64,000 nt of DNA from Microthyrium microscopicum (GCA_010405405.1 MU004230.1:2700627-2764626), one strand, 5' to 3'; numbered from the stretch's first letter, positions 38,093 to 43,262 are shown. A program made the numbers and translations. The notes: generated by a model from the letters alone, not told the origin.

Positions 38093-41000
38093 TCAAACCA
38101 GGGTGATAGTCTGCATACTAGCGGACAGTCCAGAGATACGCTCGAAATCATCTAGAAGAACGAAGCCCACTCGCTCAAATTTTCCTGTTGATAGCTCTCG
38201 TAGAACAAGACAGCCGAGGGTCATAGAATCTTCGAATTCTCCAACCACAAGAACGCATATTTTCGAGCCAGGAGCTATGTAATCGACTCCCTGCTTCGAG
38301 AGGACGTAATCGGGTCGTAGCTGTTGCCTTCGAGAGCCATGAAACTCAAGTTCATAGAAGTGTGGTTCTGATTCTAGTCTGCCACTGTAGCATAGTATTG
38401 CTGGAATTAGGTGAGCAGTAATACGCAGGCTGGCATACGCCCAGTCCCCAGCCTCGGTCAAGCCAGTGGGCAAACCTTCCAAGTTCAAAAGTTTCAGCTG
38501 AGGAGTTAGGGGCCTCGCTTCGAATTTAACATGGGCATCAATGGACGCCCACGACCAACTTGGACATCGATATTGGGTAGACCTCCTCGAACATGGTTCA
38601 GGACACGACCATGAAAGATCTGACTGAAAGGATTCTGCCCAAAGACCTGCTAAATAAGTGCCGCCATTCTGTATTTGCATATGTCGGGCAAGACCAGCCA
38701 CAGCTGGCAGCTTATCATTCTCGTCAGTCAGCAATCGTGACGAGTATTCTGAAACTAAGTTATGCCAGAAGAACGTAGCATCTCGATTGCTATGATGAGT
38801 CTCGAGAGATCGTGGTGAGCTACATTCACAGGAGAAGAACTCTCTGCACTCGAATGAAACTTCATTGGCCGTGAAGTATAGCTTCCTGGTAGACAAAAGC
38901 CCTTCCTGAAACGTCCACGCTCGCCTCATCCAAGGATTATCCTTCGGCCGACTTTCGGTAAAGTCACAAATGCCAGACAAAGAATGTGAGATATGTGGGA
39001 TCTTCTTCCGAGCGCAGATTTGGAACGGTTGTATCTCTCGAGCAAAGTGTCCTGAAGTATCAGTGGCAAAAATTCCACTCGATGAATCCGTGGATGATGC
39101 GGCGACAATCGTGACATACGCGTTTGAATATATTTTATCCATCCTTGAGATTTCTTGCTGCATATCTTCTGGATCATCTTGCAAGATACACAAAGCATCT
39201 ATCCAAATATAGCTCAGCCCGATGTAATGTGTAATGGTAATTGCGTCTTCTAAGGTTCGAGGGAGGGTGCTCCTGGCGATACCTCTTGTGTGTGCCGAAA
39301 TTGTAGCCTTAGTTGTCCTCAGTGTATCACCACTACCCCAGACATAACTCAAGGCGGAATACCGAGCTTGGACTCCCTCGCTCTCAAAGACGGAGACATG
39401 TTCATCACTAATGTACAGAACTCGACTAGGCAGTGTCGTTAGTCGAGAAGGTTGGCAGGCTTGGTGATAGGAATCACAAGTATCTATCCATTGCCTTGAT
39501 TTTTCCAGGGCATTGAAGGAAGATGTATCCCCGGTGGTAAGATTTCCACTCCTAACTCCAGGAATATCCAGCTGGGGACTTTGACCTAAGGGCGGTGTTC
39601 GTAAGCTTCAGTGTTAGGAAGACCCAAATCACCAAGACGTGACTTACCTGGTATCGTAAAGAACTCGAGAATAATTGGCAGCTCATCATGCCCGAACCTG
39701 AATTGCCAGTCTGGGATTTGCCATGAAAGCATGCCAGTTGACGGCATCTCTCCTGAAAGAACTACACTGAGACTCCTGCCGAGCAAGAAGCAACAATGGC
39801 ATCCAGATATACGCTCAAAATCGATCTCTTCGGGTTCAAGCTCTAATGATTCAAGACGGATGAGCCAGGAAGTACCTGGACTTAGCTGTTCCAGATCTTG
39901 GCATAATTGGCATCGTCGCGAAGTTTTTGTCACCATCGTTTCATGGCAGCAAGAGTTTGGTCTAAACTCACTCAAGACATCACAGGATTTAGGCCTACCG
40001 TTGGGTGAAATACGGAGCATGTCTTGCAACATATCAACTTGACGGGAGTTAAGCCAGTCAGTTTCGGGGGGCTTGTCTCGTCGCAAAACGCCTCTATATG
40101 TACCTAAAGCGTCGTTGACTTGGTCCAGACAGCGCCAGTAAGCCTTTCCAGAAGTTTGTGACGTGTTCAGGCTGTCTGAGAACAGCAAGGAGTGCAGACT
40201 ATCGACACTTTGTCCAGCCATGACATATGCCATCTCAAAGTAGACACATCCAAGTGAAAATATGTCAAACGCGGCTCCTTGAAATCCATGAGTGGTCGAT
40301 TCTGGAGCAGCATACAGGGGTGTATGTCCTCGAGGTCGTGAAATGGCCGGTTTCGAATTAGGAGAAGAAACAGAAGCTCCAAAATCAGAAATCAGTAATC
40401 TGGGGACTCTGTTCCGGTCTAAGTACATGAGAATATTTGCAGGCTTGATATCAAAGTGGAATATGTGCTGGCGATGAATCGAGTCCAAGCCAGACGCGAG
40501 GCAGCCGAGCCATCTCTTCAGTGTCACTGCTTGCACTCCTACGGCCGTCCTAGCTCGTAAGTAATCATGCAATGTACATTCAGCAACTGGTGTCATGAGA
40601 AGAGAGCATTCTCGTTGTTCTAGGAGCATGCCAACGCCTTGTACAACATGTTGATGTTTCAATTGACCAAGTAGATGCATTTCCCTTAGTGTATTGACTG
40701 ATTGGGTGCTTGACAAACAATTGGTCCTTTTTCGAGCGATAGTTTGAGCGAGACCGTCAATCTGAATTTCTTCGACGTAGCCAGTTGCGCCTCTCCCGAG
40801 CGTACGAATCCGACTCCAATTGTAGCTGAGTATTGGCTCGACATCAAATCCACCAGACGTGTCGTGGTACCAGAAGGCAACGGCCACTCCGACCTGGGAT
40901 GATAGCGACAGCCTTGCAGGCAAATCTGGCTTGATAACTCGTGAAAGCGGGCTAGATTCGAGTGAGGATACGTGCCTAATGATCTTTGATACATCATCAA

Positions 41001-43262
41001 AGCCAAAGATTGTTGGAACTCTATACTTTTCTTGCAAGGCAAATCCAATGATGGCTTTAAAGTACATCTTGACCTGGAGCATCAAGTGTGCGTACGCAGT
41101 AGTTGTTGACCAATGGTTTGAATCTTGGACCTCAACAGAAAGAAAAGAGTTCGACTTTGGGGTAGTTGTTCCGTATCGCACGGCTTCTTGACTTTCGGTA
41201 CGGCTATGATGATCCCCATGGTCAGTACTATCGTCGTCACTGTCGCTATCATCGTCGCTTTCGTCAATGCTCTCGTCGTCGCTGTCGTCGTAGCTTTCAT
41301 TGTCGCTGGCCCGGTCATTCTCGTCGTCGCTCTCATTTACGTCTTGGTCGCGTTGGGTGTCGCCATCATGGTCGCTGGCATCTTCTTCGCTATCATGGCT
41401 ATCTTCATCCTCATTATCTTCAGAGTACTTTCCCACAGTTGACGATGGTCCCTCCCACGGGTCCCGCCACTGGTCCATTCTGAACCTGTCTGTGAAATGC
41501 TCGCCAATATGCTCGATTCTTTTGACCCATCCCCGTATTTGATCTCCGCAAAAGCCGCACTTCTCGTCAAAGATCACCGGTGTAGAGAAGCTCCATTTCT
41601 TTTTCAAATTGTTATCAAATGGTATAGTTGCATGAATGCTTTTGCAGTGCTGTTCCAATTTATCTGCACGAATAAAAACTCGTCCATTTTTCCCTTGATC
41701 CAAAGAAAGCTTCCTATCGCAACATGGTATTCTGTTGCCGTGCTCTGACCTGATGTGGTGCTCGTCAGGCCTCTTTTTCGAACAGTACGAACAAGTATTC
41801 TTCCAAGTAGAACCATGGTTACATAACCAAGCTTTCTGCGGTCGATTCAGGTTTTCGTGCCGTTCCCAATCGCTTCTTTTCGTAAAGGTTTTACCACAGC
41901 ACGAAGTACACGAGTACATTTTGTCGGGATCCCAATCCTTCGACCGATGTGCATCTTTCTGCGAATCACTGAGGGATTCATCACAGTGCTTTCGGCGCGC
42001 AGGTAATCTTTCTGCGGCGCGATACAGGAGTGAGGCCAAATCTTCAGAGCTGGCTGAAGTAGAAGTTCGTGTCGCAACGTCCCCTATCGGTTGTGAATGT
42101 TGTTGATTCGCAAACCAGTCATGTACTATTGTCCTCGGAAGGTCGGTGAGCATGGCCAATGCGCGTATCTTTCTGCACGGTGGGAATCTAATCTCTGGAT
42201 TGTTCCGCTGCCAAACCCGAAAATGTTCTATACATTGCTCAGTGACTACAGGTGGCGATATCTTTACCGCTGGGTCTTTCTTTGGTTTCTTTTTAGGACG
42301 ACCCGACTGTGTGCCAATGTCGCTAACTCCAGTTCTTTTCCGTTTCTCGCTTTGTCGTTTCTGGTTCACTTTCTTTGAGGAGCTATTGTGATGACGGTAT
42401 CGTTGAGGCTCAAATGCAGTTTGAAACTTTGAAACCGATTTCGACATTTCCGTATTCAACCTCGTATTGAACCTAGAGCTATTCAGGGTAGGCTGTAAAT
42501 ATGGTTGCTGTTATCAAGTCAGATCGGCACACTTCCTCCAAGGTCGAAAATATGTCTCACCTGGAATTGGTTTGATGGGGTAAGCCAAAAGTCTGGCGAG
42601 GTCGGGGCCATCCACTGATTCTGTATAGAATCGGGCATATTTGTTGTGGTGCTAGGCTGCATGGTGATCATTTAGAAGCTAGACTATTGCTTGATCATGA
42701 TAGAAGCTCTCACAGTTGAAATTGTAGGTTTCTGTCCATCTATGGAGGACAGGTATCCATGTGAAGTTGCCGACGAAGCCTAATCACAATTAGATCCGCG
42801 ATTGATAGACCAGTTGTTTTGCCATAGAGCTGTACATAGGATGTAGATACTTACGATCGTTTGTGGTGGTGTTAAATTCCTGATATTGTGATTTGGGTAA
42901 TACCGATTCTCAGACTCATGATTTAAGCTCGTTGGCCGACGTTGCCCCATTGAACCAGTAAAGCTTCCAGCATAGCTTTGTGCCACATCATGAATCAATG
43001 GGGTACGGTGTGGCAGTCCATCCAGAGAATATCTGTTGATCTGAGGATCCGCAAAATTCAACGAGCTGTTAGACGACCATCGAGTATCATAATCTGCAAG
43101 TGAGGCTGAACGATAGTTCTCAGACCCAGGAATTGGAGGACTTTGTTGAAGACTGTTCAGATTGGTGCCATATATGCCAGTCAGGGCCCATTCCTGCGAG
43201 CCTGATGAGTCGAAGCTCGGCGGAACTCTAGCATTGTTAGGTTGATTATCTGAAGGCTCCAT
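38093..43262 (-). CDS. Homeodomain - C2H2 zinc finger - Ser/Thr protein kinase - HET domain fusion protein, ~1640 aa
   Basis: Exons 43262-42855, 42779-42714, 42656-42561, 42507-39648, 39585-38093 sum to 4923 nt in one frame; all introns GT-AG. Homeodomain ...LAMLTDLPRTIVHDWFAN; zinc fingers YSCTSCCGKTFTKRSDWERHE and CGFCG...HIGEHF; kinase LGRGATG/ARK/HFDIKPANIL/DFG/YAAPE/DIFSLGC; HET YSALSYVWG...YIWIDALCILQDD...IYSNAYVTI...RAWTFQE. Confidence 0.85.

What the first reader, a model, noticed from the sequence alone, without database searches (positions are those of the whole stretch)
38093..43262. One gene fuses a homeodomain/C2H2 transcription factor to a kinase and a HET cell-death domain
Seen: three ORFs listed separately (42780-43301, 39586-42459, 38093-39352) join through four canonical introns (42854-42780, 42713-42657, 42560-42508, 39647-39586) into one 1640-aa frame. 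The order is basic NLS-like stretch, homeodomain, C2H2 fingers, acidic tract, intact kinase, CxxC linker, HET domain. The TF and kinase lie in the same exon, so that junction needs no splicing assumption. Established: HET (PF06985) is the death effector of Podospora HET-D/E and Neurospora TOL/HET-6, and kinase-HET proteins occur in ascomycetes. Inference: this could be a non-NLR nuclear immune or allorecognition receptor, in which a TF module senses DNA or an effector and a kinase gates a death domain. I do not know a characterised protein with this four-part architecture.
Basis: partly seen in the sequence, partly recalled or inferred. Interest (0 to 1): 0.85.

Follow-up and report, generated by a model that had tools for sequence, protein, structure and literature searches.

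The report
Transcription-factor, kinase and HET death-domain fusion gene
A fungal gene, shown by spliced transcripts to be one unit, joins a worn-down DNA-binding module and an intact-looking protein kinase to a complete HET cell-death module; related fungi have the same unstudied design, so it may be a kinase-controlled death switch.

Summary
The five exons on the minus strand (43262-38093) give 1640 codons with no internal stop. Contigs of public run X1 skip exactly the four predicted GT..AG introns, including the kinase/HET one.

Pfam finds Pkinase and HET in the window's protein, but no homeodomain or C2H2 finger. Those two calls hold only at family level:
- Relatives carry Homeobox_KN at the aligned columns.
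- The family profile hits C2H2 structures.
- The model's three helices superpose on homeodomains, though at weak E-values.

The architecture is not unique:
- 6 of the 150 best representatives of the TF module carry TF + kinase + HET in this order.
- 17 of 120 long HET relatives do the same.
- They include hypothetical proteins of Cadophora, Verruconis and Lophiotrema.

Six literature searches found no description of it.

The "CxxC linker" matches, by a recalled pattern only, an N-terminal extension seen in stand-alone HET proteins.

A role as a kinase-gated, TIR-like death or immune switch is inference only. Verdict: a real gene, a new variant of HET-domain proteins, of moderate interest.

The parts
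42855..43262 (-). Exon 1 (start ATG at 43262). It encodes the start of a Ser/Pro/Asn/Thr/Gln-rich N-terminal region of 190 aa that has no Pfam hit.
   Evidence: In-frame TAA at 43343-43341 upstream. An X1 contig is collinear from 42854 to 44000.
42780..42854 (-). Intron 1 (75 nt, GTAAGT..TAG, phase 0).
   Evidence: An X1 contig skips 75 nt here.
42714..42779 (-). Exon 2.
42657..42713 (-). Intron 2 (57 nt, GTGAGA..CAG, phase 0).
   Evidence: An X1 contig skips 57 nt.
42561..42656 (-). Exon 3.
42508..42560 (-). Intron 3 (53 nt, GTGAGA..CAG, phase 0).
   Evidence: An X1 contig skips 53 nt.
39648..42507 (-). Exon 4. It holds the basic stretch, homeodomain-like helices, finger module, acidic tract, kinase and the Cys-motif extension of the HET module.
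   Evidence: A single ORF, 39586-42510..
42277..42375 (-). Basic, NLS-like stretch (KKVNQKRQSEKRKR...KKKPKK), directly N-terminal of the helices.
   Evidence: Read from the translation. An NLS function is inferred, not tested.
42094..42240 (-). Divergent homeodomain-like three-helix region (protein residues 280-328). W-F-x-N of helix 3 is kept; the Arg two places on is Gln.
   Evidence: No Pfam hit. AF2 helices 91-103, 112-122 and 126-139, with block pLDDT of 86-97 over residues 81-130 and 81 over 131-140. Of 40 Foldseek rows shown, 35 are homeodomain proteins (TMt up to 0.87, rmsd 1.2 A), but all have E >= 0.11. The region aligns with Pfam Homeobox_KN stretches of P0196, P0212 and P0254.
41491..41919 (-). 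C2H2-derived finger module (protein residues 387-529). The last finger is canonical (CGFC-x12-H-x3-H). The first finger has Asn in place of the second His.
   Evidence: No Pfam hit in this protein. The profile of alignment A1 hits C2H2 structures, best 2i13_A at E 5e-14. 13 of 24 members of A1 match zf-C2H2. Cys/His columns are invariant or nearly so. pLDDT is mostly above 85.
41206..41424 (-). Acidic tract (38 Asp/Glu in 73 residues). Kinase-less relatives of the TF module have one too.
   Evidence: A break in the X1 contigs at 41419-41479 falls here and is bridged by 61-nt records.
39973..40815 (-). Protein kinase domain (protein residues 755-1035) with GRGATG, ARK, HFDIKPAN (non-RD), DFG and APE.
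   Evidence: Pfam Pkinase, E 4.7e-32. Motifs. The nearest solved chains are CDK2, at only E 1e-15.
39649..39918 (-). Cys-motif segment (RRCQLC ... GCHCC ... LEFFTIP). It is read here as the N-terminal extension of the HET-type module, not as a linker.
   Evidence: Conserved in P0001 and P0165. A CxxC..CxxC..WxxC..HxxC pattern lies upstream of HET in 22 of 120 long HET relatives, one of them a false hit.
39586..39647 (-). Intron 4 (62 nt, GTAAGT..TAG, phase 1, CTAAC branch site). It lies inside the HET-type module, not between modules.
   Evidence: An X1 contig skips 62 nt with hundreds of bases on both sides. The prokaryote-style gene calls P0001 and P0165 run off at the same residue (...EFFTLP).
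38093..39585 (-). Exon 5 with stop TGA at 38095-38093. It holds the W-x3-C-x3-H-x2-C motif, the HET domain, the region downstream of HET and a beta-rich C-terminal domain.
38903..39361 (-). HET domain (PF06985; protein residues 1219-1371) with YSALSYVWG, WIDALCILQDD and RRAWTFQE.
   Evidence: Pfam, E 1.9e-33. Invariant columns W127 D129 C132 I133 Q135 D140 R221 W223 Q226 E227 in A3. In the model, weak likeness to TIR and to nucleoside deoxyribosyltransferase folds, Z <= 5.6.
38099..38494 (-). Beta-rich C-terminal domain of the HET-type module. Its fold is not identified.
   Evidence: AF2 strands over residues 364-495 of the exon-5 translation. No meaningful Foldseek match. VIA-align barely tested this part.

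Best explanation
This is a real, spliced 1640-aa gene of a dothideomycete fungus. It belongs to a recurrent but uncharacterised ascomycete family.

In that family an ancestral TALE-homeodomain + C2H2-finger + acidic-tail transcription factor is fused to a mostly non-RD eukaryotic protein kinase. In a subset, that pair is followed by a complete HET-type protein: Cys-motif extension, HET domain, beta-rich C-terminus.

Shown here: the gene model, the splicing, the domain order, the intact kinase and HET motifs, and the recurrence of the architecture.

Inferred: the HET module is the output. Papers report HET as sufficient for cell death and as TIR-like. The kinase would then hold HET off or switch it on, by phosphorylating itself or the Cys-rich segment before HET. 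The basic stretch plus the TF-derived module would place the protein in the nucleus or on DNA, or would serve as the surface that is monitored.

I put about 0.95 on the structural part and about 0.35 on the reading 'kinase-controlled death or immune-type switch'. The confidence below blends the two.
For: Gene model and splicing.

Domains:
- Pkinase and HET are well above the Pfam cut-offs.
- All kinase catalytic motifs are present.
- The HET invariant columns are kept.

The TF module belongs to a large family:
- 1246 representatives at E <= 1e-3, 316 at <= 1e-10 and 11 at <= 1e-30.
- 22 of 36 long kinase-less relatives carry Homeobox_KN or Homeodomain N-terminal of the fingers.
- 13 of 24 members of A1 match zf-C2H2.
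- The family profile hits C2H2 structures at E 5e-14.

Recurrence of the fusion:
- Of the 150 best TF-module representatives, 125 are TF only, 19 are TF + kinase and 6 are TF + kinase + HET (Pfam confirms on 24 of the 25 kinase-bearing ones).
- Of 120 long HET relatives, 17 are TF + kinase + HET in the same order.
- Six of these were read and scanned in full.
- The named ones come from two classes of fungi.
- An ESM Atlas cluster of 63 members carries Pkinase in 100% and HET in 97%.

In the fold search here, 13 of the 50 rows shown are TIR or SEFIR chains, but at Z 3.7-5.1.
Against: - No functional datum exists for this gene or any relative. Every name found is 'hypothetical', 'uncharacterized' or 'kinase'.
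- Pfam does not see the homeodomain or the fingers in this protein. The first finger lacks its second His, so DNA binding may be lost.
- 0 of 12 TF-kinase-HET relatives scanned have a Pfam homeodomain.
- Most HET-domain genes have no known role. PMC10197012 gives 5 het genes among 125 HET loci in P. anserina.
- The TIR-like fold signal (Z <= 5.6) is in the range the tool calls a common arrangement. Foldseek found nothing for the HET model.
- The TF-kinase core also occurs without HET or with ankyrin repeats. So HET is an optional addition, and the core function need not be death.
- The window holds no other HET or NLR gene.
- The kind of run X1 is a guess. Contigs cannot show one full-length transcript, its ends or its level.
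Confidence: 0.6

Rival explanations
1. The gene is an ordinary nuclear regulator. The homeodomain/C2H2 module still binds DNA, the acidic tract activates, and the kinase modifies chromatin or the factor itself. The HET module has a signalling or enzymatic role that does not kill, so the gene acts in development or metabolism like other fungal homeobox factors.
For: Most relatives of the TF module are plain factors: 125 of the 150 best have no kinase or HET. Many of those have a Pfam homeodomain (22 of 36). Homeobox + C2H2 factors are known in Aspergillus nidulans, as HbxC, HbxE and HbxF (passage in PMC7142095). The finger ligands are conserved and modelled with high confidence. The TF-kinase core exists without HET (19 of 150).
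Against: The one property of HET reported in the papers read is that it induces cell death. The homeodomain in this protein and in all 12 TF-kinase-HET relatives scanned falls below Pfam detection.
Confidence: 0.25
2. The TF-like N-terminus is a decaying relic of the fusion. The working unit would be kinase + HET, and the upstream 700 residues would serve only as a disordered or scaffolding region.
For: Pfam finds no family in the TF module of the window. Finger 1 has lost its second His, and the homeodomain Arg after W-F-x-N is Gln. P0151 has kinase + HET and no TF match. P0090 has the same, but at 929 aa it may simply be cut at its N-terminus.
Against: The module folds with pLDDT above 90 for 171 of 357 residues. 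Cys and His columns are invariant or nearly so across 24 sequences. The module is kept in 17 + 6 fused relatives across two fungal classes.
Confidence: 0.12
3. The gene is a heterokaryon-incompatibility (allorecognition) determinant, polymorphic in the population. Its C-terminal beta-rich domain or its TF module would set the specificity.
For: HET domains recur in het genes. In P. anserina BH, the variable domain C-terminal of HET sets specificity (passages in PMC10890737). The window's protein also has a beta-rich domain after HET.
Against: Only a small fraction of HET genes are het genes. No population data are at hand. The single run laid shows 0 differences. No polymorphic partner gene is evident among the neighbours.
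Confidence: 0.07
4. The fusion is an artefact. Two neighbouring genes (TF-kinase and HET) would be joined by a chance intron-like stretch, by an assembly chimera or by read-through.
For: Metagenome gene calls of the two nearest relatives (P0001, P0165) end at this point. None of the six metagenome loci fetched has HET after the kinase.
Against: X1 contigs join 39585 to 39648 exactly, and no laid contig covers the intron. The intron is canonical, with a branch site, and keeps the frame. The same domain order is seen in independently annotated proteins of Cadophora, Verruconis and Lophiotrema. P0001 and P0165 are prokaryote-style calls that cannot splice.
Confidence: 0.02

Closest known systems
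Uncharacterised TF-kinase-HET proteins in public databases: P0181 (Verruconis gallopava PV09_05352, 1571 aa), P0190 (Lophiotrema nucula, 1685 aa), P0055, P0056 and P0066 (Cadophora spp., 1507-1515 aa)
   Same: The domain order is the same: finger module, acidic tract, Pkinase, HET. The kinases are non-RD.
   Different: Identity is only about 30% in the TF module and 33-35% in HET for the Cadophora rows. P0181 and P0190 did not appear. The six Cadophora-type rows aligned lack the CxxC..GCxxC segment and the 'P-x-x-C-C' end of the kinase. The window's nearest relatives, P0001 and P0165 (36-45% identity), are cut at the intron, so their HET is unknown. None has been studied.
[quoted passage not shown]
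   Same: It is a non-NLR protein with a HET domain followed by a further region and a beta-rich C-terminal domain (passages in PMC10890737; model).
   Different: BH has no TF module and no kinase. I could not show a lectin fold for the window's C-terminus. No PII-like partner gene is evident in the window.
[quoted passage not shown]
   Same: They share the HET domain as the presumed death effector (passages in PMC10197012 and PMC12881547).
   Different: In the NLRs, HET is N-terminal and is controlled by a NOD domain and repeats. Here HET is C-terminal, behind a kinase, and there is no NOD domain.
Fungal homeobox + C2H2 transcription factors (Aspergillus nidulans HbxC, HbxE, HbxF; TALE-class PAH5 and PAH6 of P. 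anserina)
   Same: They have a homeodomain followed by C2H2 fingers. Relatives of the window's module carry TALE-type Homeobox_KN (passages in PMC7142095 and PMC3360767).
   Different: They have no kinase and no HET. I did not test orthology to any named Hbx or PAH protein. The window's homeodomain is too divergent for Pfam.
Plant TIR-NLR RRS1 with an integrated WRKY domain, and non-RD kinases of pattern-recognition pathways
   Same: The analogy is a DNA-binding TF domain built into a protein with a TIR-type death or signalling domain, plus a non-RD kinase (1 of 15 aligned family members is RD).
   Different: There is no NOD domain. The likeness is one of architecture only. There is no homology beyond the proposed HET-TIR link.

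Membership tests
HET domain proteins (PF06985) | Match to the Pfam HET model above its gathering score | tested here: met
   116.3 bits against a cut-off of 22.5, E 1.9e-33, covering profile positions 1-146 of 146.
HET domain proteins (PF06985) | Conserved sequence blocks of the domain are kept | tested here: met
   YSALSYVWG, WIDALCILQDD and RRAWTFQE are present. They coincide with invariant columns in 30 aligned sequences. That these are 'the three blocks' of HET is recalled.
HET domain proteins (PF06985) | Induces cell death when expressed | not testable with these tools
   Known for other HET domains only (passages).
Eukaryotic protein kinases (PF00069) | Match to the Pfam Pkinase model above its gathering score | tested here: met
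   111.9 bits against 31.7, E 4.7e-32, profile positions 2-258 of 263.
Eukaryotic protein kinases (PF00069) | Catalytic residues present: Gly loop, VAIK Lys, alpha-C Glu, HxD Asp with Asn, DFG, APE | tested here: met
   GRGATG at 761, ARK at 781, LREM, HFDIKPAN at 874, DFG at 898, APE at 924. It is non-RD, with Phe in place of Arg.
Homeodomain (PF00046) / TALE Homeobox_KN (PF05920) | Match to the Pfam model | tested here: not met
   No family at E <= 1 or E <= 0.01 for the window's protein.
Homeodomain (PF00046) / TALE Homeobox_KN (PF05920) | Three-helix homeodomain fold | tested here: inconclusive
   The model has three helices; block pLDDT is 86-97 over residues 81-130 and 81 over 131-140. 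35 of the 40 Foldseek rows shown are homeodomain proteins (1k61_C TMt 0.78, rmsd 1.2 A over 49; 5z2s TMt 0.87), but no row has E <= 0.001.
Homeodomain (PF00046) / TALE Homeobox_KN (PF05920) | Homology to proteins that carry the domain at the same place | tested here: met
   In A1 the helices align with stretches of P0196 (88-127), P0212 (41-80) and P0254 (159-198). These score above the Homeobox_KN cut-off. 22 of 36 long relatives have the domain N-terminal of the fingers.
C2H2 zinc fingers (PF00096) | Match to the Pfam model | tested here: not met
   No hit in the window's protein. 13 of 24 members of A1 do match.
C2H2 zinc fingers (PF00096) | C-x2-4-C ... H-x3-5-H ligand pattern, and profile likeness to solved fingers | tested here: met
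   The last finger, CGFC-x12-H-x3-H, is canonical. The profile of A1 hits 2i13_A at E 5e-14, PRDM9, Zif268 and others. The first finger has Asn for the second His.
NOD-like receptors (NACHT / NB-ARC) | A nucleotide-binding oligomerisation domain | tested here: not met
   Pfam lists only Pkinase, PK_Tyr_Ser-Thr and HET for the three exon translations.
TIR domain superfamily | A TIR-like flavodoxin-type fold in the HET region | tested here: inconclusive
   VIA-align over 48,161 chains gives a best Z of 5.6, to nucleoside 2-deoxyribosyltransferases. TIR or SEFIR chains fill 13 of the 50 rows shown, at Z 3.7-5.1. Foldseek gives nothing. The tool warns that Z under 8 may be a common arrangement.
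het (allorecognition) loci | Allelic polymorphism under balancing selection, and cell death on co-expression of unlike alleles | not testable with these tools
   One genome and one run, with 0 differences.

The most novel reading that the evidence does not exclude
The protein is a non-NLR, single-chain guard. A transcription-factor module copied from the fungus's own TALE-homeodomain/C2H2 regulators serves as an integrated decoy or DNA-bound sensor. A non-RD kinase reads its state. The kinase then releases a complete TIR-like HET death module.

This would be a fungal counterpart of plant NLRs with integrated TF decoys, built with a kinase in place of the NOD switch. The family's alternative C-termini (HET, ankyrin repeats or none) would then be exchangeable outputs on one sensor core.
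Probability: 0.15. Interest if true: 0.85.

Novelty: new variant of a known kind. Interest (0 to 1): 0.5.

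Why it matters
How HET domains are kept silent and then triggered outside NLRs is an open question. The papers read say the death mechanism of HET is unknown and that most HET genes have no assigned role.

This family hard-wires an intact-looking kinase, and a module derived from DNA-binding factors, in front of HET. 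That gives a direct handle on the question. Kinase-dead, TF-deleted and HET-only versions can be compared in one protein. The phosphorylation sites between kinase and HET could show how the domain is gated.

The family also shows that transcription-factor modules have been recruited into putative death proteins in at least two classes of ascomycetes.

If it turns out to be a plain regulator, it is still a documented case of a homeodomain/C2H2 factor fused to its own kinase.

Tried and rejected
- Own genome: none is held, so paralogues could not be counted.
- Runs: no RNA holder is listed. The only holder, X1, is 'RNA?' by the tool's guess.
- HET exon in the nearest relatives. The search for related loci with P0001 found nothing. 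With alignment A2 it found six loci, L001-L006. None has HET by tblastn. L001 ends about 600 nt after the kinase, so it cannot tell.
- Independent fusion of HET. On a FastTree of 122 HET regions, the 17 fused proteins plus P0090 form one clade (support 100). The window, P0204 and P0190 fall outside it. Four fused proteins (P0169, P0181, P0183, P0273) were not included, because their HET match was too short.
- On a reduced IQ-TREE set (56 of the 122 rows, P0190 left out for its long branch), the AU test does not reject one clade (p 0.743). The constrained tree even scored 24.6 log units better than the quick free search. I therefore make no claim on the number of fusions.
- Fold of the HET exon. 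Foldseek gave no meaningful row, with all probabilities at or below 0.12. The sequence search of PDB gave one chance-level row, E 0.053.
- Kinase subfamily: only generic likeness, CDK2 at E 1e-15.
- Fast evolution. The low identity of the nearest relatives (36-45%) is not evidence for it. The neighbouring housekeeping Sin1 ORF has its next relative at 74% and its best other named one at 58%.
- Earlier findings of this scan: nothing.
- Literature. Searches found no paper that describes a homeodomain/C2H2 + kinase + HET protein. Kosti et al. (PMC2838846) has 0 occurrences of HET, heterokaryon, zinc finger or homeobox. Zhao et al. (PMC4540973) mentions kinase only in its references. Dyrka et al. 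(PMC4986451) lists PKinase only as an N-terminal domain of NLRs. I did not open any supplements.

Full report
**1. What is in the sequence**

On the minus strand, three long ORFs are present: 42780-43340, 39586-42510 (974 aa) and 38093-39607 (504 aa). Joining exons 43262-42855, 42779-42714, 42656-42561, 42507-39648 and 39585-38093 gives 4923 nt. That is 1640 codons and a TGA, with no internal stop.

The four introns are 75, 57, 53 and 62 nt. They start GTAAGT or GTGAGA and end AG. The last is phase 1 and has a CTAAC branch site 28 nt before its end. An in-frame TAA at 43343-43341 closes the frame upstream of the ATG at 43262.

**2. Transcript evidence**

One public run holds the stretch: X1, kept as Logan contigs, with 0.92 of the sampled words. 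Its kind, 'RNA?', is the tool's guess.

Laid on 37300-44000, its contigs match with 0 other letters and skip four stretches:
- 39583>39646, 62 nt, cut +2;
- 42507>42561, 53 nt;
- 42656>42714, 57 nt;
- 42778>42854, 75 nt, cut +1.

All four are CT..AC on the plus strand. These are exactly the predicted introns.

The bin depths equal contig depth times the non-intron share. For example 325.2 x 162/224 = 235.2, and 914.4 x 152/224 = 620.5. So none of the laid contigs covers an intron (my arithmetic). Intron-free contigs that otherwise match the genome letter for letter can only come from spliced RNA. That step is an inference.

Limits of this evidence:
- Contigs cannot show one full-length molecule, its ends, its strand or its level.
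- The two long contigs break in the acidic-tract repeat at 41419-41479. Only 61-nt records bridge that gap.
- Both long contigs run on through the intergenic DNA into the neighbouring genes.

**3. Domains**

Pfam gives Pkinase (E 4.7e-32) in exon 4 and HET (E 1.9e-33) in exon 5. It gives nothing for exon 1.

The kinase has every catalytic motif: GRGATG, ARK, the Glu of LREM, HFDIKPAN, DFG and APE. It is non-RD, and so are 14 of the 15 aligned family members. Its nearest solved chains are generic, with CDK2 at E 1e-15.

The HET blocks are intact.

They stand only on family-level evidence, given next.

**4. The TF module**

The 357 aa before the acidic tract (41440-42510) find 1246 representatives at E <= 1e-3 among 1.84 billion proteins (316 at <= 1e-10 and 11 at <= 1e-30).

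I aligned the module with 23 short relatives (alignment A1). The Cys/His columns C201, H218 and C230 are invariant. C205, C240, C243, H288, H293, C318 and C321 are nearly so.

Evidence on the fingers:
- Of the 24 members of A1, 13 match zf-C2H2 and 5 match Homeobox_KN.
- The A1 profile hits solved C2H2 fingers, best 2i13_A at E 5e-14.

Evidence on the homeodomain:
- The Homeobox_KN stretches of P0196 (88-127), P0212 (41-80) and P0254 (159-198) lie in the columns aligned with the window's residues 91-139.
- Of 36 long kinase-less relatives, 22 have Homeobox_KN or Homeodomain N-terminal of the fingers. Eight of the 36 also have a Tc5-transposase HTH.
- An AlphaFold model built on A1 has pLDDT 77.2, with 171 of 357 residues above 90. 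It shows three helices at 91-103, 112-122 and 126-139, followed by the finger region.
- In Foldseek against PDB, no row reaches E 0.001. Even so, 35 of the 40 rows shown are homeodomain proteins (MATalpha2 1k61_C, TMt 0.78, rmsd 1.2 A over 49; DUX4-HD2 5z2s, TMt 0.87; TGIF1). The other 5 are zinc-finger proteins.

So the module is a divergent copy of a TALE-homeodomain + C2H2 factor.

In the window, W-F-x-N of helix 3 is kept, but the following Arg is Gln. Finger 1 has Asn for its second His. The last finger is canonical (the numbering of homeodomain positions is recalled).

The acidic tract (38 Asp/Glu in 73 residues) is also present in kinase-less relatives. It therefore came along with the factor.

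**5. The 'linker'**

The segment RRCQLC...GCHCC...LEFFTIP between kinase and HET is conserved in P0001 and P0165.

A pattern CxxC..CxxC..WxxC..HxxC lies upstream of HET in 22 of 120 long HET relatives that have no kinase. One of these hits, P0069, is a false match inside fingers. I recalled this motif from stand-alone HET proteins, and the regex is a crude test of it.

On this reading a complete HET-type protein was appended to the kinase, and intron 4 lies inside that module.

The HET exon model has pTM 0.81. After the HET region it has a beta-rich domain at residues 364-495.

**6. Is the architecture unique?**

No.
- Of the 150 best TF-module representatives, 125 have neither kinase nor HET, 19 have a kinase and 6 have kinase + HET. 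This was by local phmmer with the window's own domains.
- Pfam agreed on the 24 of those 25 scanned. P0259's kinase is below the cut-off. P0001 was scanned.
- Of the 120 long HET relatives listed, 17 have TF + kinase + HET in the same order, one has fingers + HET (P0069), one has kinase + HET (P0090) and 101 have HET only.
- P0151 also has Pkinase by Pfam, which phmmer missed.

Named members, all labelled hypothetical or uncharacterized:
- Cadophora spp., Leotiomycetes;
- Verruconis gallopava and Lophiotrema nucula.

The window itself is from a dothideomycete. Its Sin1 ORF is 100% identical to P0314, which the source names from a species of Microthyriales.

An ESM Atlas cluster of 63 members carries Pkinase in 100% and HET in 97%.

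Other C-termini occur on the TF-kinase core:
- ankyrin repeats (P0259, P0197);
- DUF7896 (P0288);
- none.

A Pfam homeodomain is seen in 0 of the 12 TF-kinase-HET relatives scanned. It is seen in 4 of the 18 TF-kinase proteins without HET, and in P0003. The thresholds of these scans differed: 0.1, 1e-3 and 1e-5.

**7. Controls and dead ends**

- The nearest relatives of the window's TF-kinase part are only 36-45% identical (P0001 and P0165). This is no sign of unusual divergence. Sin1's next relative is at 74% and the best other named species at 58%.
- Whether HET was fused once or several times is unresolved (AU p 0.743).
- The six metagenome loci fetched have no HET.
- Neighbours of the gene are ordinary: Sin1, PRCC, subtilase, terpene synthase, AA9, Med12 and RING proteins. 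None is a HET or NLR gene.

**8. How it probably works**

Shown: one expressed gene, with an intact-looking kinase and HET, and an architecture that is conserved.

From papers, as passages read in PMC10197012, PMC12881547 and PMC10890737:
- HET is remotely related to TIR.
- How HET kills is unknown.
- Only a few HET genes are het genes.
- In BH, the domain C-terminal of HET sets recognition specificity.

Here the HET region resembles nucleoside deoxyribosyltransferase and TIR folds only weakly, at Z 3.7-5.6. TIR or SEFIR chains fill 13 of the 50 rows shown. That is compatible with the TIR link but not evidence on its own.

My inference has three parts:
- HET is the output.
- The kinase gates it.
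- The basic stretch and the TF-derived module tether the protein to the nucleus or DNA, or act as the monitored surface.

I give this about 0.35. The rivals are a plain nuclear regulator (0.25), a relic TF region with a kinase-HET working unit (0.12), an allorecognition determinant (0.07) and an artefact (0.02).

**9. Novelty**

Six full-text searches and look-ups in five papers found no description of this architecture. Proteins with it sit unnamed in public databases.

It is therefore a new variant of the known kind 'HET-domain protein', not a new kind and not a unique gene. It is of moderate interest because it offers a testable case of HET control by a built-in kinase.

Noticed in passing
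window 1-18000: AT-rich block (GC 0.20-0.32, against 0.44-0.50 in the rest of the window), as in RIP-affected or repeat-rich regions of fungal genomes.
   Followed up: no
window 43324-43353 (minus strand): A 9-codon upstream ORF (ATG at 43353, out of frame with the main ATG at 43262), read from the sequence. Whether it lies in the 5' UTR is not known.
   Followed up: no
window 37300-38093 and 43263-44000: Contigs of run X1 run through both intergenic regions into the convergent Sin1 gene and the divergent upstream gene. This could be overlapping UTRs or pervasive transcription; it was not resolved.
   Followed up: partly
window 39931-39960 (minus strand); P0001, P0165, P0169, P0181, P0183, P0190, P0204, P0273: A conserved 'P-x-x-C-C' motif directly after the kinase domain in 9 of 15 aligned family members. 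It is absent from the six Cadophora-type rows. By eye it is also in P0002, P0003 and the HSP70 + kinase protein P0004. Its function is unknown.
   Followed up: partly
P0259, P0197, P0193; P0255, P0269, P0271, P0276, P0283, P0284, P0285, P0304: The same TF-kinase core occurs with ankyrin repeats instead of HET. Eight of 36 kinase-less relatives end in a Tc5-transposase HTH. The TF module is thus a much-reused building block.
   Followed up: partly
P0069 and P0436: Finger module + HET without a kinase.
   Followed up: no
window 20622-60356: Neighbouring ORFs by Pfam: RING (20622-21335), VWA (22395-23123), terpene synthase (27220-27912), subtilase (30307-31074), PRCC (33127-34290), Sin1 (35091-37166), AA9 (48749-49633), Med12 (53719-57189) and RING (59226-60356).
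   Followed up: partly
window 40848-41190 (minus strand; ORF residues about 440-555): A conserved region of unknown nature between the acidic tract and the kinase, shared with P0001 and P0165 (alignment A2). It has no Pfam hit.
   Followed up: no
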